A stretch of DNA of 64,000 nt from Amphiscolops sp. MND2022. Lineage: Eukaryota. The DNA is taken from the NCBI GenBank assembly GCA_964187785.1, contig OZ076409.1, positions 37,512,001 through 37,576,000 on the forward strand, written 5' to 3'. The notes under the pieces were generated by a model. It did no database searches. It was given only the letters and a program-made list of their open reading frames with translations, and was not told where the DNA came from. The position numbers were made by a program, and so were the translations under genes. This document shows, one piece after another, positions 4,863 to 64,000 of this stretch. The first letter of the stretch is position 1, and every line of letters begins with the position of its first letter.

Positions 4863-35245
<30,383 letters not shown>

Positions 35246-38200: not shown

Positions 38201-40545
38201 TGTTTCCTATTGTTAGTTTTTCCTTTTCGGAGTTTTCGGGAATTCGGTAATTTAGATAGTTTCAAAAACGTTTTCCCGCAAATTTTATCTCTATTTGCGC
38301 CGAACAGAGTAATGCTGGTGTGTCAGTTTTCCTTTTAACTAAAATCAAGTTGCTTTCACCTCTCATTTTTGAAACGTCGTAACTTGACAAAATCCAAAAT
38401 TAGAACAAACAGAGCAAAATGACTCATGTTAACAACTGTTAAGAAAAATGAACAACTTTATTGTCAAATGTGATTTTAGTACACTGGTAAATACAGTCGT
38501 GTGATAAAAGAATGGAAACCTTGTTTGATAATGAAGTTTGGAATGTCTGATGATTTTGAGAAATTGTCAAAACTGTCAATTTTTCCAAATTATGATAGTA
38601 GCATTTCTTGGATTTCCGTTTAGTTTGCATTCCCCTAAAGTTGGAAGCCTTAAGAATGTATGAGACAAATTTGCAAAAAAAAATTTTTACGCCAAGTCAT
38701 TACAGTGCACAGGCAAGCTATTTTGCTGCTTTTCTTGGAATCCGGGACATGAAAATTGAGAAAAGTCGTGGAATCCAGGACAAATTTTCCCTTTGATGTT
38801 GAGCGTGTCTTGGATTCCACCAGAGTGCTTGTCCTGGACTCCACGCCAATACTGCTGCTATAATGACGCTTTTGCCGCTGCTCTCTGATTGGTCCGCTGA
38901 TTTTGAGTAATAAAATAAAACATTTTGAAAAAGCGAGCTGAGAAGTGAAGTGAAAACCAGGCGAATTGCTCTTTTATCTTTTACCGGATGCCTATTGATA
39001 GAAAATGTCAAGTCTTGCTGTAGAAACAATTTTTGAGGAAATGAGTGAAACTTTCAACAGATGAGTCATTCGACTCACAAGTTTTTCAAACCACAGTAAG
39101 GTTGTTAAATTTGCGCGAGAACAATTCTTGTGGCTAAATCAATCAAAGTTTTAGCATTGGAGTTGTTTGTCAGAAACTGGTAAACCCTGCTTGTAAATAT
39201 TATCAGCTCTATTAGATCCAATCCAATGTTTTTCGTTCATCTTGCAATCCAAAATAACGGGAAATGCTATGTAGCTGAATTCGCAACTTTCAAAATTTTT
39301 TTCCTTGGCGAATTCACCCAGACTCACGATCGACACAGCAATTTTATGTTGTAAATCATACCTCTCAAACTCAAAGACTACTTTATTTGCAAGTTTGTTA
39401 AGTCCGATATATTGATGTTGATCGTATATGAAAATAGCAAATCTTAGATTGATTTAGCAGGACCCGACTGTTGGGACTTTGTTTTACTTTCAAGAAATAT
39501 TTGATTGACAAAAGCAGTTTTCTCTGTTCAACCTAGGAATAGTTTTTTTTCAAAAGTGTTTCACTTAATTCTGGCACTCTTTCTCTTAAAAATGGCTTTT
39601 CGTTTTTTTTCAGAAGGTATAAAATGGTGGCTCAAAAGTTTCAAGTATGCAACACCAGAAGGAAATTTTGCCAAGTGGTAGGGTGCGAATTGGATTTCAA
39701 GCACTTTTTTAACTTTCCCAAATTGAACTCTATTCATAATCTTTTCCGATCTTTTTTTGAATTCTCTTCTTTTTGAGCCCCAGGGAGAGGAAAGCACCGA
39801 GTGATAAACTTTTGCTGGTTTGTTTCTGCATTTGTTTCCTATTGTTAGTTTTTCCTTTTCGGAGTTTTCGGGAATTCGAAAATTTAGATAGTTTAGAAAA
39901 CGTTTTCCCGCAAATTTTATCTCTATTTGCGCCGAACAGAGTAATGCTGGTGTGTCAGTTTTCCTTTTAACTAAAATCAAGTTGCTTTCACCTCTCATTT
40001 TTGAAACGTCGTAACTTGACAAAATCCAAAATTAGAACAAACAGAGCAAAATGACTCATGTTAACAACTGTTAAGAAAAATGATCAACTTTATTGTCAAA
40101 TGTGATTGTAGTACACTGGTAAATACAGTCGTGTGATAAAAGAATGGAAACCTTGTTTGATAATGAAGTTTGGAATGTCTGATGATTTTGGGAAATTGTC
40201 AAAACTGTCAATTTTTCCAAATTATGATAGTAGCATTTCTTGGATTTCCGTTTAGTTTGCATTCCTCTAAAGTTGGAAGCCTTAAGAATGTATGAGACAA
40301 ATTTGCAAAAGATAATTTTTACGCCAAGTCATTACAGTGCACAGGCAAGCTGTTTTGCTGCTTTTCGTGGAATCCGGGACACGAAAATTGAGAAAAGTCG
40401 TGGAATCTAGGACAAATTTTCCCTTTGATGTTGAGCGTGTCTTGGATTCCACGAGAGTGCTTGTCCTGGATTCCACGCCAATACTGCTGCTATAATGACG
40501 CTTTTGCCGCTGCTCTCTGATTGGTCCGCTGATTTTGAGTAATCA
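35284..40545. repeat. Tandem triplication, 1632-bp unit
   Basis: Near-identical ORFs at 36509, 38141 and 39773; units start at about 35284, 37279 and 38910. Confidence 0.95.
35652..36008. mobile_element. CCC-terminal MITE with 2-bp TSD (TG), present only in unit 1
   Basis: CCCTAGT...ACTAGGG; sister units show the empty site GTAGCTG|AATTC. Confidence 0.88.
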
Positions 40546-43500: not shown

Positions 43501-43876
43501 CCCCTTTCATTTTTTTCGGCACTGCGAGACTTTTTTTCGGAAAAATTTTTCCCCAAAGGGTTCCACCGTCAATTTTTTTGCTTTTTGCGTCAGAATGGAC
43601 GTTGGAAAATCCCAAAGGGTCCCTTCTTTCAGTTTTTTTCGACACTGTGAAGTTTTTTATCCGGAAATGAAAGTTTTCCCCCCTTCAATTTTTTGATGTT
43701 TTGCGACAGAATGGTTGTTGAAAAAGCCCAAAGGGTCCCACCTTTCAGTTTTTTGGCATTGTGAAACTTTTTTTCTTAAATTTTTTTCTCTCCAAAAGGT
43801 AACCTTTCAATTTCTTTGTTATTTTACAACAGATTGGGTGTTTAAAAATCCAAAAGGGTCCCCCATTCAGTTTTTC
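40344..43876. repeat. Internal tandem duplication in unit X (40344-42230 / 42231-43876)
   Basis: ORFs 41150 and 42807 are homologous; junction at GGCA. Confidence 0.9.
41652..42234 (+). mobile_element. HINE-like element, 3'-truncated by the duplication junction
   Basis: TTTTTAGTCGGCGC start and AAAGGGTCCC repeats. Confidence 0.65.
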
Positions 43877-44112
43877 GGCATTGTGAGACTTTTTTTTCGA
43901 GAATTTGTTTTTTCTCCAAAGGGTCACCCTTCAACATTTTCGGAAGTGTCTCCCTTTTAACGCGCTGGGGGCTCGCGCCTGCGGGCCCCGGCGCGCCTCT
44001 CGGTCCATTTTTTTGCTTTTTCGATTTTCGAGTACTGTAAATTGACACTTGGAAGTCCTTTTGCTATTTTCGAGCCTTGGATATGGCGCCAACATGGGCC
44101 GATCCCAGCTTG
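43298..44112 (+). mobile_element. HINE-like element (full copy)
   Basis: TTTTTAGTCGGCGC...GGCGCCAAC-ATGGGCCGATCCCAGCTTGT. Confidence 0.68.
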
Positions 44113-46573
44113 TGCTTCCTACGTGGGAAACTGCAAAACATGTACCCTTGAAGGGTGTACTCCTAATCTAATGATTTTGCTTGGAACTAAATGAATATTA
44201 AACACTTGACGACGAAACGTTTCCGAGTAAAATTTTCGAAAGATGTGCACTTAAACCTGTCTGACATCTTTTGGAAAAACTACCAGTAGCTACACGTTTC
44301 AATCTTGAGTTTATGGGTTTTCTAATGGAAGTCAATTTTCGGAAAGGGTCCAAAATTGGGACAAGGTTGTCGATAATTGAGAAAATTTGGAATACTTGAC
44401 ACCTTTGCTGTAAAGTCCATGACTTCATCCCGTTTTTTCCCAAACTGCATTTCGAATATTCTTTTGTTTCAACGTTCAGGTCAATGGAAGTTCTATTCCA
44501 CAAAACTTTTCGTGGTTTGAACAAAAATTGGGATTCTGAGGAAACTTTCTGTCACAAACAACGGAAATTTCCCTATATAAAGTTTCCTGGAGTTTTCCGA
44601 AGCTTTTGTTCTACCCTTTTGCGGTCAATTTCGAGCCATTTTACTACTGAAAACAGCAACTATTTCTCTGGAAACCTACTGGGTTTTGAGTTGAATCGTT
44701 GTTGTTGAACGTTTGTCAACGTTTTGAATCCATAATGATTCAAAAAATACACAGCAATTCCATACAAACGTGAACGTTTTGGAATTTTTGGTACTTTTTG
44801 ACTCGTTTGGAGTCATTGTGAAGTGTTTTGCAGCAAAAGGCAGCAACGTTTTCTTAAAAAAACGTACTGCATAACTCGTTCTTTCGTTTTTGATTATATT
44901 GTTACTCATATCAATTTCTCTCGGAAATTGTGAAGAAATTGCATCAAAAACGACAAAAACATCAAATTTTTCAACATTTTCTGGGTCAATCTGATGCATT
45001 TTTTTCTACAAACAATTTTTATCTCGACAAAATGTCACTGAAACAAGTTTTCCATTGGTCAGGGGTTTTAAACTTGTAGTCCACGAAATCTATCGATAAT
45101 TTGAGAAAAACTGAATAAAAAAGGTGAAAATCGGAAAATTTTCGTAATTTTTGTCTTTTTTGATGTAAATTCCGGACCTTTTTTCATCTGAAAACTGCTT
45201 TTATCTCTTCACTAAGGATACTGGAAATTACGTATTTTTCTGATTGGCAATTTTCAAGAATCCAACCCACGAAGTCTGTGGAAAGTTTGACAAAAATTGC
45301 TTGAAAACATTTTAATTAGGAAAATTTTGTGTTTTTTGTCATTTTTGGTGCCCATTTGAGACTTTTTTCATATAGGGAACAGCAATTATCTCTTCGGAAA
45401 ACTCTACTGGACAACGAGTTTGTGCCATGTTGAGTGTTTTCATTTCAACATTCTATTCCTGGAGAGCTATCGAAAAGTTGACAAAAATTGCATAAAAACT
45501 TTTTGAACCATTGGGAAAAGTTGAATTTTTTGTATTTTTTCCGGGTCAGTTTGGGTCATTATGGGGTCATTTTTGTTAGTCCTAAGGAATTGAGAAATCA
45601 CTTGAAATACATAATATCGCACAAAGCTATATTTATTTGAGTTGAATTCTTTGGGTAGAATCCTTTAAAGTTGAACATGAATATTGTCCTTGGCAAATTT
45701 TGTAATAAAAAACCACTTGATTCAAATGTTTTTATTTTCCATATGGATTATGGGCGGAAAATAAGAAACATATCAGATTTCGAACACAAGTTTAAAAGGT
45801 GCTGAAACACATCGCAGTTGGTGTAAAAACTGTTGAAACTGCCCAGCATAGGTGGTTTCCGGTAAGAGTGGTGCTTACGCCTTGCTCCGCACTTGTAAGG
45901 AGCCACCTGGAGTATTATGCATTGTTTTCCTCTAAGTTATTTCTTCTTTATTGCTATCACTCGGAAAACAGATGAAATGGGCTGTGAAAATTGTACTTTT
46001 GCTCACGTCAATTACACCTAATGTGTAATAAGCGTCAGCTCTCCCTCTACAATGAAATGGTGTTCTGTCTCAAGTAATATATTACAAATTCAGTGGTAGA
46101 GTTCAAATTAGGAGGAGAAGCTGGTCAATGATTGCTTTTTGAAATCGTTCAAATTTTCTATCATTGACTTATTAGACTCCAAAAATTTGAGCTACTTAAA
46201 GTATATATGTAAACGGATAATCATAAATCCGTAGTCCTAAATCTAAACCCAACTTCAATACATGTACCACAATTAATTCAAAGGTGTTTGTCGATTTTCT
46301 TCAGACATGTGAATAATAAGCGGATCAAAGATTGAGAATGCTATCAGTGGGCTACGCTGGATCAAGAGGTGTGCAAAAACTGATCAAGTTTGTTTCTAAA
46401 TCAGACAAAAGTCAAAACTCGGTTTGCTAGCAAAATTATACATCGAGAGGTATCAAAAGCTATTTCCGCAACAATTGTCATGACAGTTTCAAACAAACTC
46501 GAATATAAAAAGGAACGAAATTGAAAGCATTTCTCTTGATTATCAATAGTTTAGTTGATATGGGCAGAAAAAT

Positions 46574-46684
46574 GGAATGTTCCAAAACGGGGTTCCTTTT
46601 TTTCAAGATCCCACGACGGTATATTTATATATGAATATACCGTCGTGGGATTTTGAAAAAAGGAACCCTGTTTTCGAACATTCC
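46574..46684. repeat. Near-perfect palindrome of about 110 bp
   Basis: TCCCACGACGGTATATT...AATATACCGTCGTGGGA core with extended arms. Confidence 0.92.
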
Positions 46685-47230
46685 TTTATTCTGGGCCAAT
46701 CTTACATAACTAAAGTCATGACAGAACAACGCGCATGCAATTGTTGTCTTCAATTTTTCTGTTTTTCTTCATTGTTTAAATTCGGGCCCTAATTATCTGG
46801 CAATTACCTCATTTTTGTGTTCGTTTGTCTAGTAAATTCAATTAAAAGTGACTTTTCGAGATTATTATCTGATAAAATTACCTAACCAGAAATAATTTAA
46901 AGGTCAGACTTGTCTGCTACATGTAATTTCTTCAACTTCTCCATATTGACTGTTATTATCATTCTCTTTTAATGGTTCCAGGCAATTCAATTGGGTAGCA
47001 ACAGGATGGAGAAAAGTTATCAAAATACTCCTGACAAAAACTTTTTGACGAACGAAATGTCATTTCTTTATTCAATTTAGATAACCTGGAAAGTACTAGT
47101 TCAGTTTTGAGATAGGGAAAACTTTACCCAGTGTTCGAAGCCATGGTACCCTTGCCAAGATCCATGGCAAGTTCCTTGATAGCCTTGTCAAGATCTTGCC
47201 ATGATCTTGCCATGATCTTGGCAAGTATAC

Positions 47231-47770
47231 CCGTGTTGGCATGTTTTAAAACAGACTGTTTTAAAACAGTTTTAAAACACTGTTTTAAAACAGTTTTAAA
47301 ACAAGGTCAAACTTCAGTAATTTTTTGAAACAGTGAATTTTTTTTTCAGACGAAATGAATAAAGGGCGTCCTCTTGACCCTATTTGAGAACATTTTGAGC
47401 GGAAAGACGGGAACAAGGCAAAATGTCTTGAATGCGGTTCGGAATCTGCCGCTTTAGTTGAACGTATGCGAACCCATTTCAACAAATAGCTGTTGTTATT
47501 AGCTGAAACAAGGTATAACAATGCGGTATCGGATGTTTGGTTTGCTGCCAATGTGCTCCATTCTAAGTATGGTGGACAATAACTAACTCAAAGTCAGCTC
47601 AAACTGGCAATGGAATTTATCAAAGAATTTCACGAAGAAGCACTAGAAGATTTTGTTTTCTTCATTGGCGGTGAAAATGTTAAATTTCACGATGAATTCA
47701 AAAAATTGGTGACGTGAAAATAGCAAACTTTGTAAAAGCTCAAGTACTGCTGGGCAATTTATCGGAAAAC
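47231..47770 (+). mobile_element. hAT deletion derivative (BED finger), truncated at the duplication junction
   Basis: Reads MNKGRPLDPIWEHFERKDGNKAKCLECG...RTHF; homologous to the element starting at 53412. Confidence 0.8.
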
Positions 47771-48258
47771 AACTGTTAAGAAAAATGAACAACTTTATTG
47801 TCAAATGTGATTTTAGTACACTGGTAAATACAGTCGTGTGATAAAAGAATGGAAACCTTGTTTGATAATGAAGTTTGGAATGTCTAATGATTTTGGGAAA
47901 TTGTCAAAACTGTCAATTTTTCCAAATTATGATAGTAGCATTCCTTGGATTTCCGTTTAGTTTGCATTCCTCTAAAGTTGGAAGCCTTAATAATGTATGA
48001 GACAAATTTGCAAAAAATAATTTTTACGCCAAGTCATTACAGTGCACAGGCAAGCTATTTTGCTGCTTTTCGTGGAATCCGGGACACGCAAATTGAGAAA
48101 AGTCGTGGAATCCAGGACAAATTTTCCCTTTGATGTTGAGCGTGTCTTGGATTCCACGAGAGTGCTTGTCCTGGATTCCACGCCAATACTGCTGCTATAA
48201 TGTCGCTTTTGTCGCTCTTCTCTGATTGGTCCGCTGATTTTGAGTAATCATTAGTGGC

Positions 48259-48900
48259 AAGGCAAAAGAACTTTTAATTAAATTAATTTTATATCAATGG
48301 AAATTGTTTTGATTAACACGAAAAATCCCAAAGTACGAATAGAGATAGTCATCACTGGTACCAAAATTGCAGCATGTTATCAAAAAATGTCAGATTGTGA
48401 TGATCTGACAGTTTGTTCAAAACTGGTACTGAACTGAAAAATACGCATCTTTGTGTAATATAATATACTTTTTGCATAATTCTGATTGGAAAGGCAAAAG
48501 AACTTGAATTAAATCAATATTATATCAATGGAAATTGTTTTGATTGACACGACAAATCCCAAAGTACGAAAAGAGATACTCATGACTGGTACCAAACTTT
48601 CAGCATGTCATCAAATAATGGCAGATTGGGATAATCTGGCAATTTGTTCAAAACTGGTACTGAACTGAAAAATACGCATATTTGTGTAATATAATATTCT
48701 TTTTGCATAATTCTGATTGGAAAGGCAAAAGAACTTGAAATAAACTAATTTTATATCAATGGAAATTGTTTTGATTGACACGAAAAATCCCAAAGTACGA
48801 ATAGAGATACTCATGACTGGTACCAAACTTTCAACATGTCATCAAATAATTGCAGATTGTGATGATCTGGCAGTTTGTTCTAAACTGGACTAAACTACAA
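48259..48900. repeat. VNTR of about 232 bp (3 copies here, 2 at 40554, 1 at 42441)
   Basis: AAGGCAAAAGAACTT recurs at about 48259, 48491 and 48722. Confidence 0.88.
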
Positions 48901-49502
48901 AAAATACGGAAACTTGTATGATATTGGTGTGTTTGTCTGAATCATTTTGAGTTAATATACGGAAAGTAGTGCATAAAATTATGTTTGTTCAGTCAACCAT
49001 TTGAATTTAGTTCAAGAAGAGATGCCGCGAATCGCGTCAAACACAAAGTTGTGGAATCCAGGAAAATTATGATTTCTGCAACCTGATTGGTTCATTTTGC
49101 AAAACTTACGTTTTTGTGGAATCCAGGACACAGCGGCATGCCGACAGTGCGCACAGCTATGCATTTGTTACTAGAATCCACGACGAAATCCGTGAAATCC
49201 GGGATATATGACGTAATTTGCCAATTTAGCACGATTAAAGGTGACTCTAATGATTGGGCCTTTCCCGGTTTATTATATTTATGCATATAGTTTCACCAGG
49301 AGTGTCAAAAATTGGAAAAATTTGATATTTTTGACATTTTTGGCTTCAAGTTGAGGAAATTTTCGAACATGAAACTAGAGATGTCTCTTCCAGAATAGGC
49401 CTACTGGACCCCAAGTTTAGTTGTTGTTGAATGTTTACACCATTCTAACACAACGAAGTAGTTCAAAAATTTTACAAAAATTGTTAAAAAACGTTCATTC
49501 AG

Positions 49503-50321
49503 TTTTTAGTCGGCGCTTCATGAAGTGAAACGCGACTATTATAGTGCCTTTTTTTTCAATCCACACGAACTGAACAAAATAATTCTTAAAAGGTATGCAA
49601 GATATTATTGCACCAAATTGCATCATTTGGCCTAGCGAACTGAACCAAAAAAATTTTCCCGTTTTTTGCGTAACATACCATACCAGGCGAGACCAAAGGG
49701 TCCCCCCTTTCAATTTTTTTCGGCACTGCGAGACTTGTTTTCGGAATAGTTTTTCCCCAAAGGGTTCCACCGTCAATTTTTTTTGCTTTTTGCGTCAAAA
49801 TGGATGTTGGAAAATCCCAAAGGGTCCCTACTTTGAGTTTTTTTCGACACTGTGAAGTTTTTTTTCCGGAAATAAAAGTTTTCCCCCTTCAATTTTTTGA
49901 TGTTTTGCGACAGAATGGTTGTTGAAAAAGCCCAAAGGGTCCCACCTTTCAGTTTTTCGGCATTGTGAAACTTTTTTTCTGACGTTTTTTTTCTCTCCAA
50001 AAGGTGGTCCCCCTTTCATTTTCTTCGATATTTTACAACAGATTGGGTGTTTAAAAATCCAAAAGGGTCCCCCTTTCAGTTTTTCGGCATTGTGAGACTT
50101 TTTTTCGAGAATTTGTTTTTTCTCCAAAGGGTCACCCTTGAACATTTTCGGAAGTGTCTCCCTTTTAGCGCGCCGGGGGCTCGCGCCTGCGGGCCCCGGC
50201 GCGCCTCTCGGTCCATTTTTTTTGCTTTTTTGATTTTCGAGTACTGTAAATTGACACTTGGAAGTCCTTTTGTTATTTTCGAGCCTTGGATATGGCGCCA
50301 ACTTGGGCCGGTCCCGGCTTG
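49503..50321 (+). mobile_element. HINE-like element (full copy)
   Basis: TTTTTAGTCGGCGC...GGCGCCAACTTGGGCCGGTCCCGGCTTGT; internal GCGCGCCGGGG/CCCCGGCGCGC hairpin. Confidence 0.68.
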
Positions 50322-52792
50322 TGCTTCCTACGTGGGAAACTGCAAAACATGTACCTTTGAAGGGTGTACTCCTAATCTAATGATTTTGCTTGGAACTAAA
50401 TGAATATTAAACACTGGACGAAGAAAGACGAAAAAAATTTTACGTTTCCGAGTAAAATTTTCGAATGATGTGCACTTAAACCTGTCTGACATCTTTTGGA
50501 AATACTACCAGTAGCTACACGTTTCAATCCTGAGTTTATGGGTTTTCTAATGGAAGTCAATTTTAGGAAAGGGTCCAAAATTGGGACAATGTTGTCGAAA
50601 ATTGAGAAAATTTGGAATACTTGACACCTTTGCTGTAAAGGCCATGACTTCATCCCGTTTTTTCCTAAACTGCATTTCGAATATTCTTTTGTTTCAACGT
50701 TCAGGTCAATGGAAGTTCTATTCCACAAAACTTTTCGTGGTTTGAACAAAAATTGGGATTCTGAGGAAACTTTCTGTCACAAACAACGGAAATTTCTCTT
50801 TAATGTTTCCTGGAGTTTTCCGAAGCTTTTGTTCTACCCTTTTGCGGTCAATTTCGAGCCATTTTACTACTGAAAACAGCAACTATTTCTTTAAAAACCT
50901 ACTGGGTTTTGAGTTGAATCGTTGTTAATGAACGTTTGTCAACGTTTTGAATCCAAATTGAGTCAAAAAATACACAGCAATTCCATACAAACATGAACGT
51001 TTTGGAATTTTTGGTACTTTTCGACTCATTTGGAGTCATTGTGAAGTGTTTTGCAGCAAAAGGCAGCAACGTTTTCTTCAAAAAACGTACTGCATAACTC
51101 GTTCTTTCGTTTTCGATTATATTGTTACTCATACCGATTTCTCTCGGAAATTGTGAAGAAATTGCATCAAAAACGACAAAAACATCAAATTTTTCGACAT
51201 TTTCTGGGTCAATCTGATGCATTTTCTTTCTACAAACAATTTTTATCTCGACAAAATGTCACTGAAACAAGTTTTTCATTGGGCAGGGGTTTTAAACTTG
51301 TAGTCCACGAAATCTATCAATAATTTGAGAAAAACTGAATAAAAAAGGTGAAAATCGGAAAATTTTCGTAATTTTTGTCTTTTTCGATGTAAATTCCGGC
51401 CTTTTTTCATCTGAAAACTGCTTTTATCTCTTCACTAAGGATACTGGAAATTACGTATTTTTCTGATTGGCAATTTTAAGAATCCAATCCACCAAGTCTG
51501 TAGAAAGTTTGACAAAAATTGCTTGAAAACATTTTAATTAGGAAAATTTTGTGTTTTTTGTCATTTTTGGTGCCCATTTGAGACTTTTTTCTTTTAGGGA
51601 ACAGCAATTATCTCTTCGGAAAACTCTACTGGACAACGAGTTTGTGCCATGTTGAGTTTTTTCATTTCAACATTCTATTCCCCGAGAGCTATCGAAAAGT
51701 TGACAAAAATTGCATAAAAACCTTTTGAAACATTGGGAAAAGTTGAATTTTTTGTTTTTTTTCCGGGTCAGTTTGGGTCATTATGGGGTCATTTTTGTCA
51801 GTCCTTAGGAATTGAGAAATCTCTTGAAATACATAATATCGCACAAAGCTAAATTTATTTGATTTGAATTCTTTGGGTAGAATCCTTCAATGTTGAACAT
51901 GAATATTTTCCTTGGCAAATTTTGTAATAAAAAACCACTTGATTCAAATGTTTTTATTTTCCATATGGATTATGGGCGGAAAATAAGAAACATATCAGAT
52001 TTCGAACACAAGTTTAAAAGGTGCTGAAACACATCGCAGTTGGTGTAAAAACTGTTGAAACTGCCCAGCATAGGTGGTTTCCGGTAAGAGTAGTGCCCAC
52101 GCCTTGCTCCGCACTTGTAAGGAGCCACCTGGAGTATTATGCATTGTTTTCCTCTGAGTTATTTCTTCTTTATTGCTATCACTCGGAAAACAGATGAAAT
52201 GGGCTGTGAAAATTGTACTTTTGCTCACGTCAATTACACCTAATGTGTAATAAGCGTCAGCTCTCCCTCTACAATGAAATGGTGTTCTGTCTCAAGTAAT
52301 ATATTACAAATTCAGTGGTAGAGTTCAAATTAGGAGGAGAAGCTGGTCAATGATTGCTTTTTGAAATCGTTCAAATTTTCCATCATTGACTTATTAGACT
52401 CCAAAAATTTGAGCTACTTAAAGTATATATGTAAAAGGATAATCACAAATCCGTAGTCCTAAATCTAAACCCAACTTCAATACATGTACCACAATTAATT
52501 CAAAGGAGTTTGTCGATTTTCTTCGGACATGTGAATAATAGGTGGATCAAAGATTGAGAATGCCATCAGTGGGCTACGCTGGATCAAGAGGTGTGCAAAA
52601 ACTGATCAAGTTTGTTTCTAAATCAGACAAAAGTCAAAACTTGGTTTGCTAGCAAAATTATACATCGAGAGGTACTAAAAGCTATTTCCGCAACAATTGT
52701 CATGACAGTTTCAAACAAACTCGAATACAAAAAGGAACGAAATTGAAAGCATTTCTCTTGATTATCAATAGTTTAGTTGATATGGGCAGAAA

Positions 52793-52911
52793 AATGGAAT
52801 GTTCCAAAACGGGGTTCCTTTTTTTCAAGATCCCACGACGGTATATTTATATATAAATATACCGTCGTGGGATTTTGAAAAAAAAGCAACCCTGTTTTCG
52901 AACATTCCATT
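52793..52911. repeat. Palindrome, duplicate of 46574-46684
   Basis: Perfect centre GGTATATTTATA|TATAAATATACC. Confidence 0.92.
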
Positions 52912-53307
52912 ATTCTGGGCCAATCTTACATAACTAAAGTCATGACAGAACAACGTGCATGCAATTATTGTCTTCAATTTTTCTATTTTTCTTCATTGTT
53001 TAATTTTGGGCCCTAATTATCTGGCATTTACCTCATTTTTGTGTTTGTTTGTCTAGTAAATTTAATTAATAGTGACTTCTCGAGATTATTATCTGATAAA
53101 ATTACCTAACCAGAAATAATTTAAAGGTCAGACTTGTCTGCTACATGTAATTTCTTCAACTTCTCCATGTTGACTGTTATTATCATTCTCTTTTAATTTA
53201 TCAAAATACTCCTGACAAAAACTTTTTGACGAACGAAATGTCATTTCTTTATTCAATTTAGATAACCTGGAAAGTATTAGTTTAGTTTTGAGATAGGGAA
53301 AACTTTA

Positions 53308-54306
53308 CCCAGTGTTCGAAGCCATGGTACCCTTGCCAAGATCCATGGAAAGTTCCTTGATAGCCTTGTCAAGATCTTGCCATGATCTTGCCATGATCTT
53401 GGCAAGTATACCAGTGTTGGCATGTTTTAAAACAGACTGTTTTAAAACAGTTTTAGAACACTGTTTTAAAACAGTTTTAAAACAAGGTCAAATTTCAGTA
53501 ATGTTTTAAAACAGTGAATATTCTTTTTCAGACGAAATGAATAAAGGGCGTCCTCTTGACCCTATTTGGGAACATTTTGAGCGGAAAGACGGGAACAAGG
53601 CAAAACGTCTTGAATGCGGTTCGGAGTCTGCTGCTTTAGTTGAACGTATGCGAACCCATTTCAACAAATAGCTGTTGTTGTTAGCCGAAACAAGGTATAA
53701 CAATGCGGTATCGGATGTTTGGTTTGCTGCCAATGCGCTCCATCCTAAGTATGGTGGACAACAACTAACTCAAAGTGAGCGCAAACTGGCAAAGGAATTT
53801 ATCAAAGAATTTCACGAAGAAGCACTAGAAGATTTTGTTTTGTTCATTGGCGGTGAAAATGTTAAATTTTACGATGAATTCAAAAAATTGGTGACGTGAA
53901 AATAACAAACTTTGTAAAAGCTCAAGTACTGCTGGGCAATTTATCGGAAAAACTTGGTAACATCTCGGAGCAGCTCATGGCCATGGTTCCTTCATCAGCT
54001 GGTCTGGAACGGATTGTCTCGTCAATGGGCTATATTCATTCGGAAATACGTAATAGACTTGATCCTGAAGAAGTTCGTACACTTGCCTTTTGTATGCGCT
54101 TGCTGAGTTCAGCAGCGAATTTGGAGTAATGTTTGTACTTTTCAATTGAATTGAAAGTTCAAATTGAAACCCTGTTTTAAAACGTTTTATAACGTATAAA
54201 AATACTTTTAAACGTTTTTTAACCAACCCTGAAGTATGCCATGGCCATGCAAGGTCGTGCAAAGGCTAACCATGATTAACCATGATCTTGGCAAGGGTTC
54301 CATGGT
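53308..54306. mobile_element. CCCAG-family TIR element with damaged right tip, hosting a hAT insert; left part duplicated at 47127
   Basis: TA-CCCAGTGT start; CCATGG(T/A)ACCCTTGCCAAGATC inverted at both ends. Confidence 0.6.
53412..54231 (+). mobile_element. Internally deleted hAT transposon (BED finger and dimerisation domain)
   Basis: TIR CAG(T/G)GTTGG; 8-bp TSD AAGTATAC / AAGTATGC; reads DPIWEHF... and VPSSAGLERIVSSMGYIHSEIRNRL. Confidence 0.9.
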
Positions 54307-54703: not shown

Positions 54704-56201
54704 CTGAACCAAAAACACGGAACGAACAAAATCTTTCGAGCTCAAGGTTCCAAATATTTTCCAATCATTCAAGTTGGCAAAGTCTTCGGAACCAAAGAAC
54801 TATCACACATTAAAAGTGATAACGAAAAGACTGGTCAAGACGTCTAGACAGACTACAGTAGTGTGAGAAATAAACAGCCTTTGTTTGTAGAAAAAAATGG
54901 ACCAAAACAAAACTAGCTCTGTTTTCGGCTATCATCCAATAATTTGAAAATCAAATAAACAAACATTCTAAGGTTCTGGTGTGCACTTGAAAGGTAGGTT
55001 TATCTCAAACATTCGATTTGTCTTTTCAGTCCCGTAAATTCATGAGTAAAGTAGAGAATGTGTGATGCCATGATGCATGTCCTCAAAGATTTTATAAATC
55101 TGAAATACTCTGAACTTTTAACAGAAGAAATTAGTAAATCTAATTGAATCTAGAAACTAATTATTCTAGAAGAAACTTCATTTAATAGATCCTGTATCAA
55201 ACTTCCCTGTTTCATCCTGTTGCTGTCACATTATTAATTGATGTAACCTACCCTAGTTAATAGAATATATCTACTCGGAGAAATTGAGAATTCTTCCTAG
55301 CAATCAGTCTTCTTCCAGCACTTCAAGAACTGAGATCTCAGAAATAGATTGTACTCTGAACTAGCTAGCTACCAAGTATAAGATAAAAGATAAGACGACT
55401 CTGCTGTTAAAATCTTAGACTTCTTATGTCAGTTCTAACTCGTATAAAAGAAACAACTACCAAACTTTTTAACAGCTCAATTGGTGCGACCACGAAAATT
55501 CTTCTTTCTCTCCCATTTATTTCACACATCTACAATTGTTGTACACCTTTCCTCAACTTTCTCATCCGATATCTCTTTGTTCGACACACAGTCTCTCCAC
55601 CTCTCAATATTGCATACCGTTATTAACTTCAACGTTGCAACCAATTTCTACTTGAAATTGATCCGTGTTGCTATGGTTCTGACTGCGTTCATCAACGTAA
55701 TTCCTGTCAGTCATACTTCTTGGTTCTGACTACGTTTCTTCACGTAATTCCTGTCAGTTAAATTTTTCGTTCCAACCACCTCTGAGTGAATTCGTGTTGG
55801 CTTTTTTCTTCTCTCTTTCTTTCGTTCCAACCGCAGACGTGCGATACGTGTTGGCCCTTCTACAGTGCTATCCAGCGATTCCTGCTAGTAGAAATCTCTT
55901 TGGTTCTAGCCGCTTGGATCAACTTTAAAGTTGGCACACCTATATAACACATATTTTTTACATAACATAATTATAATACTTTTCTTATCCTCTCTTCTAT
56001 ACTACCAACCCCATACAAAACTCCTTTAAAACTCTCTTACGGATCCAAAGATATAACAATTAAAATACATACTACATAATAATCTAAATATATAACATAT
56101 ATCACATCTTTCTTTATATAACTTTCATTTTTTCATACAACTATATACAACAAATTCCTGTACAACCTTTTTGACAAACTTTAAATTAACCTTTATTGTA
56201 T

Positions 56202-56324
56202 ATGCCGCCTTCAGTAGACACTATAGTTAAACTTATTGTCTGCTTTTGGTTTTTTGTTGCTATCATTGCCGGTCTTGCACTTTTTCTAGACAAATTTTTA
56301 ATTTCATTCATACCAAAATTTTAA
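56202..56324 (+). CDS. Small upstream ORF, 40 aa, one predicted TM helix
   Basis: Manual translation: MPPSVDTIVKLIVCFWFFVAIIAGLALFLDKFLISFIPKF. Confidence 0.4.
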   Translation: MPPSVDTIVKLIVCFWFFVAIIAGLALFLDKFLISFIPKF

Positions 56325-56343
56325 AGTACAATCTTTTTCTTCT

Positions 56344-56583
56344 ATGTTGACAAGTATAGTACTACCTCTTTTTGGACTACTTAGTATATACCACACTTTC
56401 AAAATACTTATCCAATATATACAAAACCCACTTCTTCTTTTCATAAGTATTGTACTTACTATTTTTCTACAAGTTATTTTTATAGATCAAATTTTACCAT
56501 ATAATTCACAATTCAATACACAATATCTTCTTTTCCAATACATCTATCCTTTATGGCAATCCTATTGTACTAATCAAACTTAA
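56344..56583 (+). CDS. Small upstream ORF, 79 aa, two hydrophobic segments
   Basis: In the ORF track; 19 nt after the previous ORF and 9 nt before the next ATG. Confidence 0.4.
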   Translation: MLTSIVLPLFGLLSIYHTFKILIQYIQNPLLLFISIVLTIFLQVIFIDQILPYNSQFNTQYLLFQYIYPLWQSYCTNQT

Positions 56584-56592
56584 TATCATATA

Positions 56593-59500
56593 ATGCTCCC
56601 CACTCCATTTACAGTCTCTACTGATAAAAGACAAAATCGATCTCTTATACAATATGTAACACCTTTTCTACAAAATATTATCTTTCAGTACACTAACCCA
56701 CTTCCATTTGAAACAGAACCCCATATTTTACACACTATTCCATTAATACGAGAACATTGTGATTCCTACTTATATTATATCCAATATAAAACACTTGACA
56801 TAACACCATCACAAACCCCTTTCCAAGTTATTTTTAATCCTGTTAAAGGAATAAACTCTGGAACATTTTATAGAACTATACATCCACAGAATATTACACT
56901 TTCTATACAAGATGTTTTTCGCACATACATGCAAAAACTCATTAAATTCAATGAACACCAAGACATACCACCTTATCGTCCTTCTCATTTACAAGAACTA
57001 AAACACTTATCTGAATATTTCGAAGTCCCTGATCTTGACACAAAAGTTCAAAGACATGGTAACCCTCATTATTGGCTACAACGAGATATAATACAAATAA
57101 AGAATTTCGAGTTCAAATTCTTTACAAAAATTACCCTTACAGATGACACTATACCTCAAGTCAAAATTTTTACACATTTCTTATTAAAATTCTTTAGATT
57201 TAACTACCAATTACTTTGGGAACAAAAAGACCAAAACGCTTATACTAACTTCCCAAAAGCATTAACAGATATAGAACTCTTACCATACATCATAGACAAA
57301 AAAAAACAAACACTTACATTACATAGATCTTACTTCATTAAATGTTACACATTTTGAACAAATAAACCTAGATCACAACTTTGTACTTGAACATTCTGAA
57401 ACGTCAGATAGTAGACCTTATATTACATCTGATACTTTACATCAAACAACTCTTCAAACACAAACCTTTAATGTTGAACCTCCATATATCAGACAACAAT
57501 CAGAACAATCAGAACAAGAATCTATAACACAAGAAACACTTGTTCATCTTTTTCAAAATTCTGATTCTCCTCAAGAACAATCGCCACAGCCACCACAATC
57601 ACAAATCTCTGATACACGACAACCAAATCCGTCTGAAACACATACACTTCCCAATACATCAGAAGTTTCTGACGAAACAGTACAAAATCCACAAAGTTTT
57701 ACAATAACTGAAGACTCCAATCTTATAACAATTCCTACCCACAATATCACCCAAAGGACTACAAATCAGAATCAAGACAACCCTTCAAATGTCATCACAG
57801 ACAATACTTCTGTTTTATCTCCATATAATACTAACATTACACAACCCTCTCAGACACAAATAATACCTCCTCGAAATTATGATCCACCTCCTATTCCATC
57901 TCAATTCTCAGCTCAAATAAATACTCATGTCTCTCCTCAACCAAGCTCATCAAATACACACTCTATTACACAGAACAATAATACAGTACATTTCCAAACA
58001 CCAACTCCACCTTCATCTTCTGAAATACAAACTTCAACTTATACTCCAGCTCAAACTAACCCAGTACACACTACACAGCCTACTTTAAATATTAATACAA
58101 TTCATTCTAACCCGCTCTCTAACTATACTACAGCCAGACATCTGTCTCGACCTCCATTACAACCTATCTTAACTGACCCATTATCATACAATCTTACCAG
58201 TACCAATCCAAGTCATACCCAACAATCTCAAATAAATTATAACACACACAACCAATTAAACACTCTTTCTTCCCAGCATACATCCAATACAATCCCTCCT
58301 ACATTACAAACCTCTCACTTTCAAATATCAAATCCTCCTTCAACAACAATTAGAACTAACCCTCACTTTCATAATACTCTAACTATCCCTTCAACTAATA
58401 TTTCAAATCATCCTACGTACAATACAACACCTCCATCTACTATGTCTCATAACACTATGTCACATCCAACATATATTAACTCTTCTACTTCTATATCAGA
58501 ACCCATTAAACCTTTTGATGGACTCGATCACAACTATACACCTGAAGAATATTTACAACATATTGAGGCACGTGTTACATTCTCCTTAGGTCTACAACCT
58601 ACATCAGGACATGAATATAAATTTTGGCACGCCCGTCGCATGGCTTTCATACAATGCTCTTTAACAGGTACAGCACTCAGCTGGTACATTCGTTTAAACG
58701 ACACCTATAAACATGATTGGCACGCTTTCGTACAAGCTTTCAAAAAACAATTCTCATCACAAAAGAACGCCTACTATGCTCAAGTTGAAGCCCTTAACTT
58801 AACAAAGAAAGATAATGAAACAGTACGTCATTTTGCACTCAAAGTTCAACAACTGGTTGAAAAAGGCTGGTGTAATGAGAATGCATCTACTATAAACCTT
58901 AAATGTAATGAAATCTTTACAAAAGGACTTCCAAAATCCCTTAAAGACTTTGCAAACAAAAGACAAGTAAAACATACCTCCACTGTCTTAGAACCTTCAA
59001 TTCCTTTCCATACTTTGGTAAAACTTGTTGACGCTGAAGATATTGCAAACGACAAAATTAGAACACATGATCTTGCACTTGAAATCAATAATATTACAAA
59101 ACAATTGAACACTCAAACCCTAGATCACCCATCTCAAGAACAACTTATGTATACACAACCCAAAGACCCAAATAACAAAAATAAACCTGCATATAAAAAA
59201 TATTGCTCATACTGTCATAGAACAAATCACTCCATTTCTGCTTGTTTCAAAAAACAACGAGATGATCAAGATAAACGAGAAGCATATGCTCGATCAAAAT
59301 CTCCACAAAAATCATTCGTTCAGTACTTTCGTTCCCCTTCAAATGACAAAACAAAACACTATGATAATCGATATCGAAGTCGAAGTACTTCACGAGACAA
59401 CTCTTATAACCAAAAATATTCACAAGATCGATACCGTTCTACATCTCGAGATAGAGACCGATTTCGTTATGATAAAAGTACTACTCCTCCACATTACTCC

Positions 59501-60349
59501 AGATCAAGATATGATACATATAAACGTGATTCTCGATCTTACCGTTCTCCTTACAGATCTTCTTATAGATCTCCATATAGACCCTATTCAAGAGATGACA
59601 AATTTAACAAATACACAAATTCATATAGACCACCTTCTAGACCAAGAAACTCTCGATTTTCCAGATGCCGATCACATTCAAATTCCAGAAATAAAATCAA
59701 TATAAGACAACAACAAGAACAAACTGATCCTATCAAATTTGAAGTACACATGTATCACCCAACAGCAATGGCAAATGTTGTCACACCTACAAGTTGGTTT
59801 AATACTCTATATGTACACACCCCATCAAGTATAGTACAAAGAGATAACCCATCTAGATTAGAAATTGCATTCCTCCTAGATAGCGGTGCTTCCATTTCTG
59901 TACTCAATTACCCAACATACATAACCCTTACAAAACTTCTCGATATCAGACCAAATCACACCTCTGATGTTGGACCAACTAGAAATTCCAAAACACTAAC
60001 TGTTGCAAACCAAACTGAAGTTCCTATTTTACACTATGCAAATATCATTCTGAACACCACTATTGACGAAAACTCTCGATACTTTTCAGTACCCTTCGCA
60101 GTAGCTGATATTAAATACAATATCCTTGGCACACCATTCTTCGAAGACAATATACAAAACATAAACATACAAGACTTTACACTCGAATTTAAATACCAAT
60201 CAAAAACACACCCAAATTATGCAAAATTTACAACACTTCTATCTAAAGATTATCCATACTTCTCCTACATTTATAGAATTAACTCAAAAACTCAAATACG
60301 TTTAAAACCCAAATCTTCCAAAATTGCACACTTTCCGATCAAAAATTAA
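56593..60349 (+). pseudogene. gag: Extended gag-protease: unknown N-terminal domain, S/T/P/Q-rich linker, capsid, CCHC knuckle, RS-rich tract, aspartic protease
   Basis: ORF 56593..57357 joins the gag frame across the A9 run at 57298-57306; motifs IKPFDG, CSYCHRTNHSISAC and LLDSGA. Confidence 0.85.
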
Positions 60350-63300
60350 CATAATCTTCATTTTACAACTACACCACAAAACCACTTCTTTCCTTCAGTA
60401 CCTCATACCTATTTTGCTACCAAATTCCGTACGACTTTCAATTTTATTGAAGTTTTTACAGACGACAAGCCAGACATATGTGCAACTATTATTCAAAACA
60501 CTTCAAAACATATTGCAACGCTACCTACAGGACATATTGGCTACATTGAAGTTCCAATTACTAATGAAAAACCTAAATTCTTCCAAGTTAACGACATTAA
60601 TACCTTAATACATAATGTTACTCATACTTACCATCCTGATATTACTGAACCACTTCCACAGACCAATTATATTGTACAATATGATGATCCTACAACCCCT
60701 CCTCCACAATTCTCTCTACATCAAATTTATATGACAAATGACAACATTCCAAACCAAACTTCTCCCCTATATAACGTTCAACCTACTTCTCATACCTCAG
60801 AAAAACGCATTTTCCCTTCTCTTCCATATACTTCTGAAAATCTGAAATTTATTAACAAATTTAATTTCCAATTTTCTGACCTTACCGATTCAAAATATAT
60901 TACTCTTTGCAATATGCTACTCAAATATAAAACATGTTATGCAACCCATAAAAACGATGTTGGAAAAATTTCAACACCCTTTCGTATACGACTTAAACCA
61001 AATGCTCAACTTATGACACAACGTCCTTCCAAAGTCCCTATTCATTATCGAGACAAATTAAATGCACTTCTCAAAGAACTTGAAAAATATAACATTATTA
61101 AACAAATTGGTTCTTCTCCTCAAGACAAACCCGTTTATGGCACAACTTATTTAAATCCTCTTATTATAATCCCCAAGGGAGATACAATAAAATGTGTATT
61201 AGACGCTCGACATCTTAATTCCAATACAGAACAATCTGATGAATCTTGGCCTATTGAACCTCTTGCTCCACAACTAGCACGCGCAAACAAAAAGTACAAA
61301 TCTGCTATTGACCTTATGTATGCCTATGCACATACACCTCTTGACGAAGATACTATAAAACTTACTAGCTTCTCTTCAGGAGACAAACTTTTCGCTTTCA
61401 TACGAGGCCTTTATGGTCTCAAAGGACTACCAAATTTCTTTACAAAACAAATGTCTACTTTCTTTAAAACTCTTATAGAACAAGGTTTCGCGCTTGTCTA
61501 CATTGACGATATATTACTTTTATCCGACTCTAAAGAACACATGTTTCAACTCATAGAACAATTACACATTATCAGTACAAAAAATAATCTTAAACTAGCC
61601 CCTGAAAAATCCTTTTTCATGCTCCTCAAAGTCAAATTCCTTGGACATGAAATTGGTTACAATACAATTAAACCAATTCATTCAAAAATTGCAGCTGTTC
61701 ATAAGATCCCTTCTCCAACTGGCAAAGTTGCCCTAATGAGTTTCATTGGCGCACTCAATTTTTACACCAAATTTATTGAAAAACTACATATTAACCTCAA
61801 ACCATTTTACGATCTTTTACATGAAAACACTCCTTGGAAATGGACAGACGAACACGAAAGTCTATTCCAAAAACTTAAAATGTCTCTCACTTCTGAAACA
61901 GAATTAACAATACCGAACACAAAACATCCATTTTTCATTACAGTTGACGCTTCCCTTATTGGATTAGGCGCTGTCTTATTCCAGTTAAATGAACAAAACA
62001 AAATGAAAGTCATATCGTACAACTCTCGTATACTTAACCCACAAGAACAAAAACTCTCCACACTTGATAGAGAACTCCTTGGTATAGTACACGCACTTCA
62101 AATCTATGAATTTCTTATCATAGGTTCTCCACATCCAATACACATTTTCACTGATCACAAACCTTTATTACATTGTTTTACAAAGAAAGGTAATCTCAGC
62201 CCTTGTTTCTATAGAGCTCAAATGCAATTGACAAAATTTTCAAAACTCAAAATAATTCACACCCCAGGAAAAAATCTCTCTGTTGCCGATATGTTGAGTC
62301 GCTCATTCACAAAAACTGAATTACAACTTAACCAATTAAAACATAAACACCTCCCACCACAAATCGATTTTGCACTTATACAAGATAACACTCTTAAACC
62401 TGTACATTACTTAATAAAACATGAAGAAATTTTACCTCATCAAAAACATGACTCTCATCCAATTCTTGCTGATTATGGTACAGATCAATTTTCTATTCGT
62501 ATCAATGATAAAGGAAATGACATTATTGTAAAACCCTTACAATCTTTTTCATTCAAATCTGTAACTCCTTTTCAAACCAAATTTAAGACACCTACAAAAA
62601 GGAATAACAAAACCCTTCATCAACAATCTCTCTTACTCAATGATACTGACGTTACAAGTGATGACGAAGATCATATTTACACCAGAATTCCAAAACCTGA
62701 CTCTTCCTTCTCACAAGATACTACATTACAAACAGAAAATTATTCTACTCTTAAACAACCAAGTCACAACACCTCACAGAAATCAATTTCCGCAATAATT
62801 GTACAACCAAATTTACCATCTCTCACACACTGTCAACAAATTATACCTTTTTACGATACATCATTTTTTAAGTACAAAAACTATTTTCAAGGTTTCTTCC
62901 TCCCTGATGATTACTCCTTAGACATAAAAACTCTTCAACAACAACAATCTCAAGATCCGGTTCTCAGAACTGTTTATTCTTGGTTACTAAATAATGAAAA
63001 ACCCGAATTTATAACACCTCTTATCACTGGTACTCCATTTCTACATGTATATTACAAAAGATTTTCACAACTTTTCATTGATGAATCCACTAATCTTATT
63101 AGTTTGTATATTACAAACCCCACTGTTAATAACCAATCCTCTACTCCAAATTTTGTACAAGATACTATTCGCATATGCCTACCTTTTAGACTGTTTAAAA
63201 CTGTCTTTAACAAACTTCATGAACATTCTCACACTGGTATGAAAATCACCTACAATACATTCAAACAATATTACTATATTCCATTCCTTGAAAAATGGCT

Positions 63301-64000
63301 TTCCATTTTCATCCATGACTGTATTGAATGTCAACGTAATAAGCACTTCAATATGAAAATTCAAACTGCTCCTACACAATCATTTTCAGAACATGCTCCA
63401 TCTTTCAACTATAGAATCTCAATGGACACTAAAGGACCTACTAATCCTCCTTCTCATAACAAATCCTATATACATGTAATAATTGACGCTTTTAGTCACT
63501 TTGTTGTTACAGTACCCATCAAATCAAACAACGCAAAGACTGCTATCAAAACTCTCCTACACCATTGGATTATTAAATTTGGAACACCCATATACCTTGT
63601 CACTGATCGTTGATCAGAATATGTTAACAAAGAAATGGCACACCTTTGTACACTTATGGGAATTCGTCATTCTCCTAGAACAGCTTAATCTCCTTGGACA
63701 AATGGACTTGTTGAAGTACAAAACAGAAATCTTGGTACTCATCTTCGAATGTTCCTACATGACACACCTAAAGATTGGGCATTTCAAGTCCATATGTATG
63801 CTTATGCACATAATTCACAACCACTTTCAGAACTCAATGTTTCACCTCACGAAATTGTTTTCCATACTAGACCCAGAATACCCCTCACATTTGATTTAAA
63901 CCTTAATCGAGATACCTCCAAGACATGTATTTCACGCTATTGCTCTCAACTCCCTGAACACTCTCACTATGATAAATCAGATTTAAACCCATTCTTCTAC
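60350..64000 (+). pseudogene. pol: pol (RT, RNase H, integrase) in the same frame as gag; stops at 60347, 63611 and about 63686
   Basis: YIDD; DAS..GLGAVL; TDHKPL; ADMLSR; HEHSH..CIEC; SMDTKG, IIDAFS, VTDR*SEY and NGLVE. Confidence 0.93.

What the first reader, a model, noticed from the sequence alone, without database searches (positions are those of the whole stretch)
56202..56595. Two tightly packed small membrane-protein ORFs ahead of gag in a Gypsy element
Seen: after the PBS and a ~700-nt leader come ORFs of 40 aa and 79 aa, both strongly hydrophobic, separated by 19 nt, with 9 nt to the next ATG. The first ORF carries Gs although 55935-56040 and 56051-56159 contain none, which hints at coding constraint. 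Established: canonical Metaviridae have no membrane ORFs 5' of gag, and env-like genes are normally 3' of pol. Inference: a polycistronic accessory cassette (viroporin- or small-fusogen-like) translated by reinitiation or leaky scanning, possibly helping cell-to-cell spread. Caveat: T-rich DNA gives hydrophobic ORFs by chance.
Basis: partly seen in the sequence, partly recalled or inferred. Interest (0 to 1): 0.7.

Follow-up and report, generated by a model that had tools for sequence, protein, structure and literature searches.

The report
Two membrane micro-genes ahead of gag
A Gypsy-type retrotransposon family carries two tiny hydrophobic reading frames just before its capsid gene, preserved in relatives as little as one-third identical, so they are very likely real membrane-protein genes; they may help the element pass between cells as the fly protein sORF2 is proposed to, although they lack its typical motifs.

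Summary
Observation confirmed: ORF1 (56202-56324, 40 aa) and ORF2 (56344-56583, 79 aa) lie 19 nt apart and 9 nt before the gag start of a Ty3/Gypsy element; this copy's gag-pol is broken. Both look like real genes. ORF2 relatives only 26-46/76 identical align without gaps from the same first residue, and end at 77-82 aa in 10 of 11. Their substitutions are more conservative than 500/500 neutral simulations, for both ORFs. The leader holds 1 ATG against 7.9 expected. Neither ORF matches a known family or fold. These ORFs resemble that layout but fail its myristoylation and polybasic tests, and both are hydrophobic. Most likely they are leaky-scanned membrane accessory proteins. Cell-to-cell transfer is my leading guess (0.4) over intracellular membrane anchoring of particle assembly (0.3). 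There are no expression data, and the host and any 3' env are undetermined. The scan noted similar cassettes in two other genomes.

The parts
55061..55479 (+). 5' LTR (TG...CA, 419 nt)
   Evidence: Contigs of runs X1 and X2 start to match at 55061, X1 with a loose end before it. The 3' end is inferred from a CA two bases before the PBS-like TGG; the 3' LTR is outside the window.
55482..55499 (+). Primer-binding-site-like TGG motif (tRNA not identified)
   Evidence: Sequence; ARAGORN finds 0 tRNA genes in the window.
55482..56201 (+). ATG-depleted leader. It holds one 18-codon uORF (55673-55729, strong context), short direct repeats (55674-55718/55721-55765; 55765-55777/55820-55832) and a nearly G-free 267-nt stretch (55935-56201).
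   Evidence: 1 ATG vs 7.9 expected, 2 of 2000 shuffles as low; repeats; folding z = -1.05 for 55480-55960.
56202..56324 (+). ORF1, 40 aa, one predicted membrane helix (11-29) with a small-xxx-Gly motif and a conserved AGLALFxD stretch
   Evidence: found in front of ORF2 in 7 of 38 profile hits; pooled substitutions more conservative than 500/500 neutral runs.
56344..56583 (+). ORF2, 79 aa (77 in many relatives): hydrophobic/amphipathic helix 2-25, predicted membrane helix 29-47, aromatic amphipathic helix 59-78; in frame with gag but separated by a stop
   Evidence: 185 relatives, 105 of the 120 listed being 76-80 aa; distant relatives; model with pLDDT 74.7, pTM 0.42.
56553..56573 (+). 6-codon out-of-frame uORF inside ORF2, ending 19 nt before the gag ATG
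   Evidence: not followed up.
56593..57357 (+). Start of gag: a 236-aa N-terminal domain of no known family. In this copy it is cut off by a frameshift near the A9 run at 57298-57306.
   Evidence: 204 relatives; 95 of 120 listed start at this Met. No Pfam or fold match.
57296..64000 (+). Rest of gag (Ser/Thr/Pro/Gln linker, capsid), protease, RT, RNase H and integrase; in-frame stops at 60347, 63611 and 63686; cut by the window end
   Evidence: Pfam; best solved RT relative is Ty3, E 1e-37. A natural relative, P0243, is one 2731-aa gag-pol with no clear membrane segment.

Best explanation
ORF1 and ORF2 are two conserved small reading frames of this Gypsy family that are predicted to encode membrane proteins, are likely made from the element's full-length RNA by leaky scanning ahead of gag, and would most likely act at the cell membrane to help capsids pass to a neighbouring cell without an envelope protein, as proposed for fly sORF2. 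Shown: position, conservation of start, length and order across about nine deep lineages, conservative substitution, and the ATG-poor leader. Predicted: the membrane helices. Inferred: translation, leaky scanning (ORF1 and ORF2 starts have U at -3, gag has A at -3), and any role in transfer. That both are real selected protein genes I put at about 0.9 (ORF2) and 0.85 (ORF1); the confidence given is for the whole statement, including cell-to-cell transfer.
For: Selection: 11 distant ORF2 rows (26-46/76 identical) align ungapped from the same first residue (10 Met, 1 Leu), and 10 of 11 end at 77-82 aa. Neutral runs keep both an open frame and the ATG in 0-3.7% of trials. Pooled over 8 deep lineages, mean BLOSUM of differences is -0.03 vs -0.67 neutral (0/500 at three transition ratios) and membrane-helix hydropathy is 2.46 vs 1.85 (0-3/500). 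For ORF1 (5 rows) it is 0.09 vs about -0.6 (0/500). Among 163 distinct ORF2 rows, changes shared by >=8 rows score +0.38 and singletons -0.77, the same pattern as the gag N-domain (neutral 1-2/200). In the same copy, ORF2 is 87-94% identical while the gag linker is 76-81%. The ORF block has no stable RNA fold (z +0.53). Translation layout. Likeness to sORF2: upstream of gag, same strand, 77-79 aa (sORF2-like range 63-107), about 28 residues before the main membrane helix (about 30 in sORF2), and amphipathic helices on both sides (muH 0.58 and 0.54). The gag-pol of P0243 has no env-like segment.
Against: No MGxxxS/T in 0 of 145 stand-alone ORF2 rows, 0 of 11 distant rows, or in ORF1. At most 2 K/R in the 15 residues after the helix in 145 of 145 rows; only 3 of 11 distant rows reach 3. 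Lys sits just before the helix in 9 of 11 distant rows and an acidic residue usually just after, which hints at the opposite topology or a two-helix hairpin. ORF1 is shorter than the 60-aa screen limit. Charged-residue avoidance in the helices is not significant. Single-row ORF1 tests are weak (0, 20, 30, 42, 62 of 300). An env gene 3' of pol cannot be excluded because the window ends in integrase. Even sORF2 did not fuse cells in heterologous assays. There is no RNA, ribosome or protein evidence.
Confidence: 0.4

Rival explanations
1. The two proteins are intracellular membrane anchors. Their hydrophobic nascent chains would bring the translating genomic RNA to the ER, and the proteins would scaffold particle assembly or nuclear entry in the same cell, with no cell-to-cell step.
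For: They lie on the same RNA just 5' of gag, and lack FAST hallmarks. Ty1 RNA is carried to the ER by SRP to nucleate assembly sites (PMC3945221, abstract). The family also has an unusual 236-aa Gag N-domain that could be the partner.
Against: Specific residues are conserved well beyond plain hydrophobicity (ORF1 A23, G24, L25, A26, F28, D30; ORF2 N28, Q43, F46, P52, F57, T59), more than an SRP signal needs. No interaction was tested.
Confidence: 0.3
2. They are viroporin-like or host-modulating micro-proteins, forming an oligomeric pore or regulating a host membrane protein or a defence pathway.
For: Size; a small-xxx-Gly packing motif in ORF1 in 8 of 9 rows; ORF2's borderline first helix (median KD19 1.69) could make a hairpin. 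The likeness to viroporin layouts is recalled, not from a call.
Against: No match in the viral structure library (best E 2.5), Pfam or PDB sequences. Few polar pore-lining residues in ORF1.
Confidence: 0.17
3. They are regulatory upstream ORFs that only tune gag-pol translation; the peptides themselves do not matter or only stall the ribosome.
For: Tight spacing, weak-weak-strong start contexts, and an ATG-poor leader.
Against: Gap-free length conservation, conservative substitution and retained hydropathy at 34-60% identity point to folded products.
Confidence: 0.09
4. They are chance hydrophobic frames in T-rich leader DNA, carried along by element copying.
For: One such ORF arises in 17% of shuffles, and 2 of 9 off-frame ORFs in gag-pol reach KD19 >=2.0. 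The protein collection holds only frames that a gene caller found open, and many hits are broken.
Against: Nulls conditioned on an open frame still fail (0/500). Detection bias is small: 200 of 300 neutral rows would have been found, with mean score -0.65. Codon-position bias is seen in both ORFs but not in the leader.
Confidence: 0.04

Closest known systems
sORF1/sORF2 of Drosophila MDG1-group Gypsy elements (412, mdg1, Stalker, Tabor, Blood) and 105 insect sORF2-like candidates (10.1101/2025.03.14.642691; PMC13486581)
   Same: Two short same-strand ORFs between the LTR and gag, under purifying selection. The second is 70-80 aa, with about 30 residues before a membrane helix and amphipathic helices on either side.
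   Different: Here both ORFs are hydrophobic, whereas sORF1 is an ~110-aa nuclear protein. No myristoylation motif, no polybasic patch in this copy or near relatives, and possibly two membrane helices. ORFs are packed 19 and 9 nt apart, with no AATAAA between them. The element has a 2731-aa single gag-pol with a novel N-domain. Direct sequence comparison with sORF2 was not possible.
Reovirus FAST proteins (p10, p13, p14, p15; features from PMC12945298 passages)
   Same: Small, membrane helix with hydrophobic or amphipathic flanks.
   Different: Shorter than 100-200 aa (80-200 in the sORF2 paper); no N-myristoylation, no membrane-proximal dicysteine, no polybasic motif; topology uncertain.
Nackednavirus smORF1/smORF2 (as described in 10.1101/2025.03.14.642691)
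   Same: Two small ORFs upstream of the capsid gene of a reverse-transcribing element.
   Different: smORF2 has a polybasic region, and 7 of 11 have a myristoylation motif; different virus family.
Extra ORFs upstream of gag in plant Tat/Ogre Gypsy elements (PMC4408406 passages)
   Same: Accessory ORFs 5' of gag in Ty3/Gypsy elements, function unclear.
   Different: Those carry plant-mobile-domain or Transposase_28 domains; no Pfam domain here.

Membership tests
Ty3/Gypsy LTR retrotransposon (Metaviridae) | gag then protease-RT-RNase H-integrase order | tested here: met
   Pfam on the window and on P0243; the protease hit is weak (E 0.16).
Ty3/Gypsy LTR retrotransposon (Metaviridae) | RT closest to Ty3-type enzymes | tested here: met
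   Best solved relatives 4ol8 and 7q5b (Ty3 Gag-Pol), E 1e-37 and 3e-37.
Ty3/Gypsy LTR retrotransposon (Metaviridae) | Two LTRs and a PBS | tested here: inconclusive
   5' edge at 55061 and TGG at 55482; the 3' LTR is outside the window and the tRNA is unidentified.
MDG1-group (412/mdg1 clade) | pol falls in the MDG1 clade | not testable with these tools
   No named clade references could be fetched; scans of viral, metagenome and genome contigs gave no loci.
sORF2/FAST-like | Short sense ORF upstream of gag, 60-210 aa | tested here: met
   ORF2 is 79 aa and meets it; ORF1, at 40 aa, does not.
sORF2/FAST-like | N-myristoylation motif MGxxxS/T (absent in 2 of 6 fly sORF2s) | tested here: not met
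   0 of 145 near rows, 0 of 11 distant rows; ORF1 starts MPP/MPS.
sORF2/FAST-like | Three or more K/R in the 15 residues after the membrane helix | tested here: not met
   Window ORF2 has 0; <=2 in 145 of 145 rows; 3 of 11 distant rows reach 3. ORF1 has 2 in the window and 3 in 1 of 9 rows.
sORF2/FAST-like | Single membrane helix, N outside and C inside | tested here: inconclusive
   No TMHMM-type tool. Helix 29-47 is clear; helix 2-25 is borderline (KD19 >=1.6 in 97 of 145). Flanking charges are ambiguous.
sORF2/FAST-like | Amphipathic motifs in ecto- and endodomain; ectodomain about 30 aa | tested here: met
   muH(11) 0.58 and 0.54 in the window, 0.30-0.64 in 21 rows; 28 residues before the helix. 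No background distribution was computed.
sORF2/FAST-like | Element lacks env | tested here: inconclusive
   None inside gag-pol (P0243); the region 3' of pol is not available.
sORF2/FAST-like | Plasma-membrane localisation and cell-cell transfer or fusion | not testable with these tools
   Needs experiments.
Viroporin | Oligomeric ion-conducting pore | not testable with these tools

The most novel reading that the evidence does not exclude
An independently evolved, two-component membrane module in an envelope-less Gypsy lineage: a 40-aa and a 77-79-aa protein that together move capsids between cells without the myristate and polybasic patch of sORF2/FAST. This would be a second class of retrotransposon micro-fusogen that myristoylation-based screens cannot see.
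Probability: 0.25. Interest if true: 0.85.

Novelty: new variant of a known kind. Interest (0 to 1): 0.58.

Why it matters
Envelope-independent spread of LTR elements is known from one fly clade, and candidates were screened only with a myristoylation filter, a limit the authors state. Here a cassette in the same position, but with no myristoylation or polybasic motif and no known homologue, has been held under protein-level selection across about nine deep lineages. It gives two very small, cheaply testable genes. They would either widen the set of micro-fusogens or reveal another membrane step in the Gypsy life cycle.

Tried and rejected
No whole genome is held for the window, so there is no genome-wide copy survey and no DNA-level dN/dS. 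Locus scans confirmed nothing: viral contigs with RT (0 of 43 pattern matches), metagenome contigs (0 of 40) and GTDB contigs (0 of 31) with the gag N alignment. The run search listed 2 low-share holders and no RNA holder; this says nothing on expression. Laid contigs were shallow; the two listed ORF2 differences (56466, 56481) are both synonymous, too few to count, and 26 further differences were not shown. A direct ORF1 search gave 1 cluster, so distant ORF1 sequences come only from frameshift-fused calls. No Pfam family at a meaningful score for ORF1, ORF2, the gag N-domain or 16 ORF2 rows. No PDB sequence hit. Atlas best score was 0.75 for ORF2, and the BTB-like lead for the gag N-domain was weak (0.86-0.90) and not supported by fold searches (best Z 5.7, no E<=0.001; model pLDDT 56.6). 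ORF2 fold search gave no match. An ORF1-ORF2 programmed fusion was rejected: the 10 fused calls among 120 have different junctions. An ORF2-Gag fusion as the normal product was judged unlikely: 7 read-through copies carry different residues at the stop position, although low-level read-through is not excluded. RNA structure as the cause of conservation was not supported. Complex prediction of ORF1 with ORF2 was not available, so binding is untested. The host was not identified. Literature searches: (0 papers for LTR retrotransposon + upstream ORF + viroporin + gag) showed no description of this family's ORFs; the library lacks most subscription papers.

Full report
OBSERVATION. Both ORFs are as described: ORF1 56202-56324 (40 aa), ORF2 56344-56583 (79 aa), 19 nt apart, and 9 nt before the ATG at 56593. 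Their best 19-residue hydropathy windows are 2.89 and 2.72, and the two G-free stretches are exact. The chance caveat is real for one ORF: 507 of 3000 leader shuffles give an ORF of >=40 aa with KD19 >=2.0, and 2 of 9 off-frame ORFs within gag-pol reach that value. A pair as hydrophobic as observed appeared in 0 of 3000, with thresholds chosen after the fact. Both ORFs show codon-position bias (p 0.03 and 0.01), and the leader does not.

THE ELEMENT. The LTR starts at 55061, where contigs of two public runs begin to match. A CA at 55478-55479 and a TGG at 55482 give the likely LTR end and PBS. Domains run capsid, RT, RNase H, integrase, and Ty3 is the closest solved RT. The ATG at 56593 is the gag start: 204 proteins match the N-domain, and 95 of the 120 listed begin at this Met. 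One natural relative, P0243, is a single 2731-aa gag-pol, 96-98% identical to the window's gag and pol pieces, with no clear membrane segment. The window copy is broken by a frameshift near 57298-57306 and by stops at 60347, 63611 and 63686. The window ends inside integrase, so an env gene 3' of pol is not excluded. The host was not identified; all relatives looked up come from unnamed ENA assemblies.

ARE THE ORFS SELECTED? ORF2 has 185 relatives among 186 candidates; 105 of the 120 listed are 76-80 aa, 10 are ORF1-ORF2 frameshift fusions with differing junctions, and 5 are other forms. Across 163 distinct rows, minority residues shared by at least 8 rows average BLOSUM +0.38 (n=29) against -0.77 for singletons (n=156; p=0.0005). 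The gag N-domain gives +0.35 and -0.74. Neutral simulations reach that gap in 1-2 of 200 runs at each of five transition ratios. In six proteins holding both ORF2 and Gag, ORF2 is 87-94% identical to the window, the gag N-domain 82-92%, the linker 76-81% (5 copies) and the capsid region 95-96% (2 copies); these copies are not independent.

A profile search of 1.84 billion representatives gave 38 hits. I kept by eye 11 distant rows whose ORF2 part is unbroken, and set aside 27: three near relatives and 24 truncated, frameshifted, chimeric, gapped or near-subfamily rows, as expected among decaying copies. The 11 are 26-46 of 76 identical to the window and 26-68% identical to one another. They align without gaps from the same first residue (10 Met, 1 Leu), and 10 of 11 end at 77-82 aa. 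For six of them, neutral change to the same identity keeps both frame and ATG in 0-3.7% of runs, before counting indels. A tree of 21 rows resolves about nine deep branches with an open backbone. Pooling one row for each of 8 deep branches, against a null conditioned on an open frame, mean BLOSUM is -0.03 vs -0.67 (0 of 500 at three settings) and membrane-helix hydropathy 2.46 vs 1.85 (0-3 of 500). ORF1 (5 distant rows, 15-18 of 31 identical) gives 0.09 vs about -0.6 (0 of 500) and 2.34 vs 1.95 (14-20 of 500). Avoidance of charged residues was not significant. Detection bias is small: 200 of 300 neutral rows would have been detected, at mean -0.65. Gene order is kept: 7 of the 38 hits carry ORF1 in front and 7 carry Gag sequence behind. 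Limits: these are protein-level tests on gene-caller output, the nulls start from the window sequence, and no DNA alignment or dN/dS was possible. The ORF block has no stable RNA fold (z +0.53).

ANATOMY. ORF1 has a 10-residue N-terminus, a predicted helix at 11-29 with a small-xxx-Gly motif in 8 of 9 rows, nearly invariant A23-G24-L25-A26, F28 and D30, and a short tail. ORF2 is modelled as three helices, 2-25, 29-50 and 59-78 (pLDDT 74.7, pTM 0.42). The middle one is the clear membrane helix (KD19 >=1.6 in 143 of 145 rows), the first is borderline (97 of 145), and the third is aromatic and amphipathic. Neither matches Pfam, PDB sequences, the Atlas or viral structures.

TRANSLATION (inferred). 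The 720-nt leader holds one ATG against 7.9 expected (2 of 2000 shuffles), opening an 18-codon uORF. ORF1 and ORF2 starts have U at -3, and gag has A at -3; that A at -3 is the strong context is general knowledge, not tested in this host. This fits scanning with reinitiation and leaky scanning through two weak starts to gag. ORF2 is in frame with gag, but 7 read-through copies carry different residues at the stop, so separate products look like the norm. No RNA holder was listed, so expression is untested.

COMPARISON. Voichek et al. (10.1101/2025.03.14.642691; I read parts 1-5 of 10, the limitations section and method passages; its supplementary sequences were not seen) show that env-less MDG1-group elements encode sORF1 and sORF2 upstream of gag. 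sORF2 is a translated FAST-like membrane protein found at capsid-filled protrusions into the oocyte; fusion was not reproduced in cell culture. PMC13486581 (passages) reports sORF2 in >=80% of mdg1-group consensus sequences and never together with env. By that paper's criteria, ORF2 meets position, size, ectodomain length and amphipathic flanks. It fails myristoylation (0 of 145; 0 of 11) and the polybasic patch (0 of 145; 3 of 11 distant rows), and its topology is unclear. ORF1 is too short and, unlike sORF1, is hydrophobic. So this is not filed as sORF2/FAST, though it may work like one. FAST features were also checked in PMC12945298 (passages), plant extra ORFs in PMC4408406 (passages), and the ER-targeting rival in PMC3945221 (abstract). 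PMC13524379 (passages) does not mention sORFs. Seven searches showed no account of this family's ORFs. The scan's notes list two similar cassettes in other genomes (e1-7496144, e1-9565843), unchecked here; no look-alike sequence was on record.

VERDICT. A real, selected, two-gene hydrophobic cassette with no known homologues, in the position of a known kind of accessory gene: a new variant of a known kind. Function remains inferred: cell-to-cell transfer 0.4, intracellular membrane anchoring 0.3, pore or host modulator 0.17, purely regulatory uORFs 0.09, chance 0.04. Interest 0.58.

Noticed in passing
window 56593-57300: A 236-aa Gag N-terminal domain, conserved in 204 relatives down to 47% identity, with no Pfam, PDB or viral fold match (helical 100-210). 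It is followed by about 400 residues of Ser/Thr/Pro/Gln-rich linker before the capsid domain, an unusually long Gag front end.
   Followed up: partly
window 55674-55855: Two pairs of short direct repeats in the leader (45 nt at 82%; TTCGTTCCAACC...GTGTTGGC twice, each able to form a hairpin), possibly packaging or dimerisation signals. The single leader ATG sits at the first repeat.
   Followed up: no
window 55935-56201: A 267-nt stretch with only 6 G, directly ahead of ORF1; unexplained (unstructured ribosome landing zone or AG-free zone).
   Followed up: partly
window 55426-55626: A 66-aa ORF crossing the LTR end into the leader; not hydrophobic (KD19 1.36), no Pfam match.
   Followed up: partly
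window 59400-59700: An Arg/Ser/Tyr-rich low-complexity region after the zinc-finger-like motif of Gag.
   Followed up: no
window 35377-53820: Tandem units of about 1.63 kb and duplicated segments spaced about 6.2 kb apart, with internal ~120-nt subrepeats.
   Followed up: no
window 116-2114 (- strand), 7300-12800, 16590-19469 (- strand): Other decayed mobile elements: an LTR element with gag and zinc knuckle, further pol-like fragments, and a non-LTR-type RT.
   Followed up: partly
window 34946-35110: Weak SAM-domain match (Pfam E 0.003), possibly a host exon.
   Followed up: partly
P0001, P0042, P0121: Relatives with internal tandem duplications, one placing ORF2 in frame behind a Gag fragment.
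   Followed up: no
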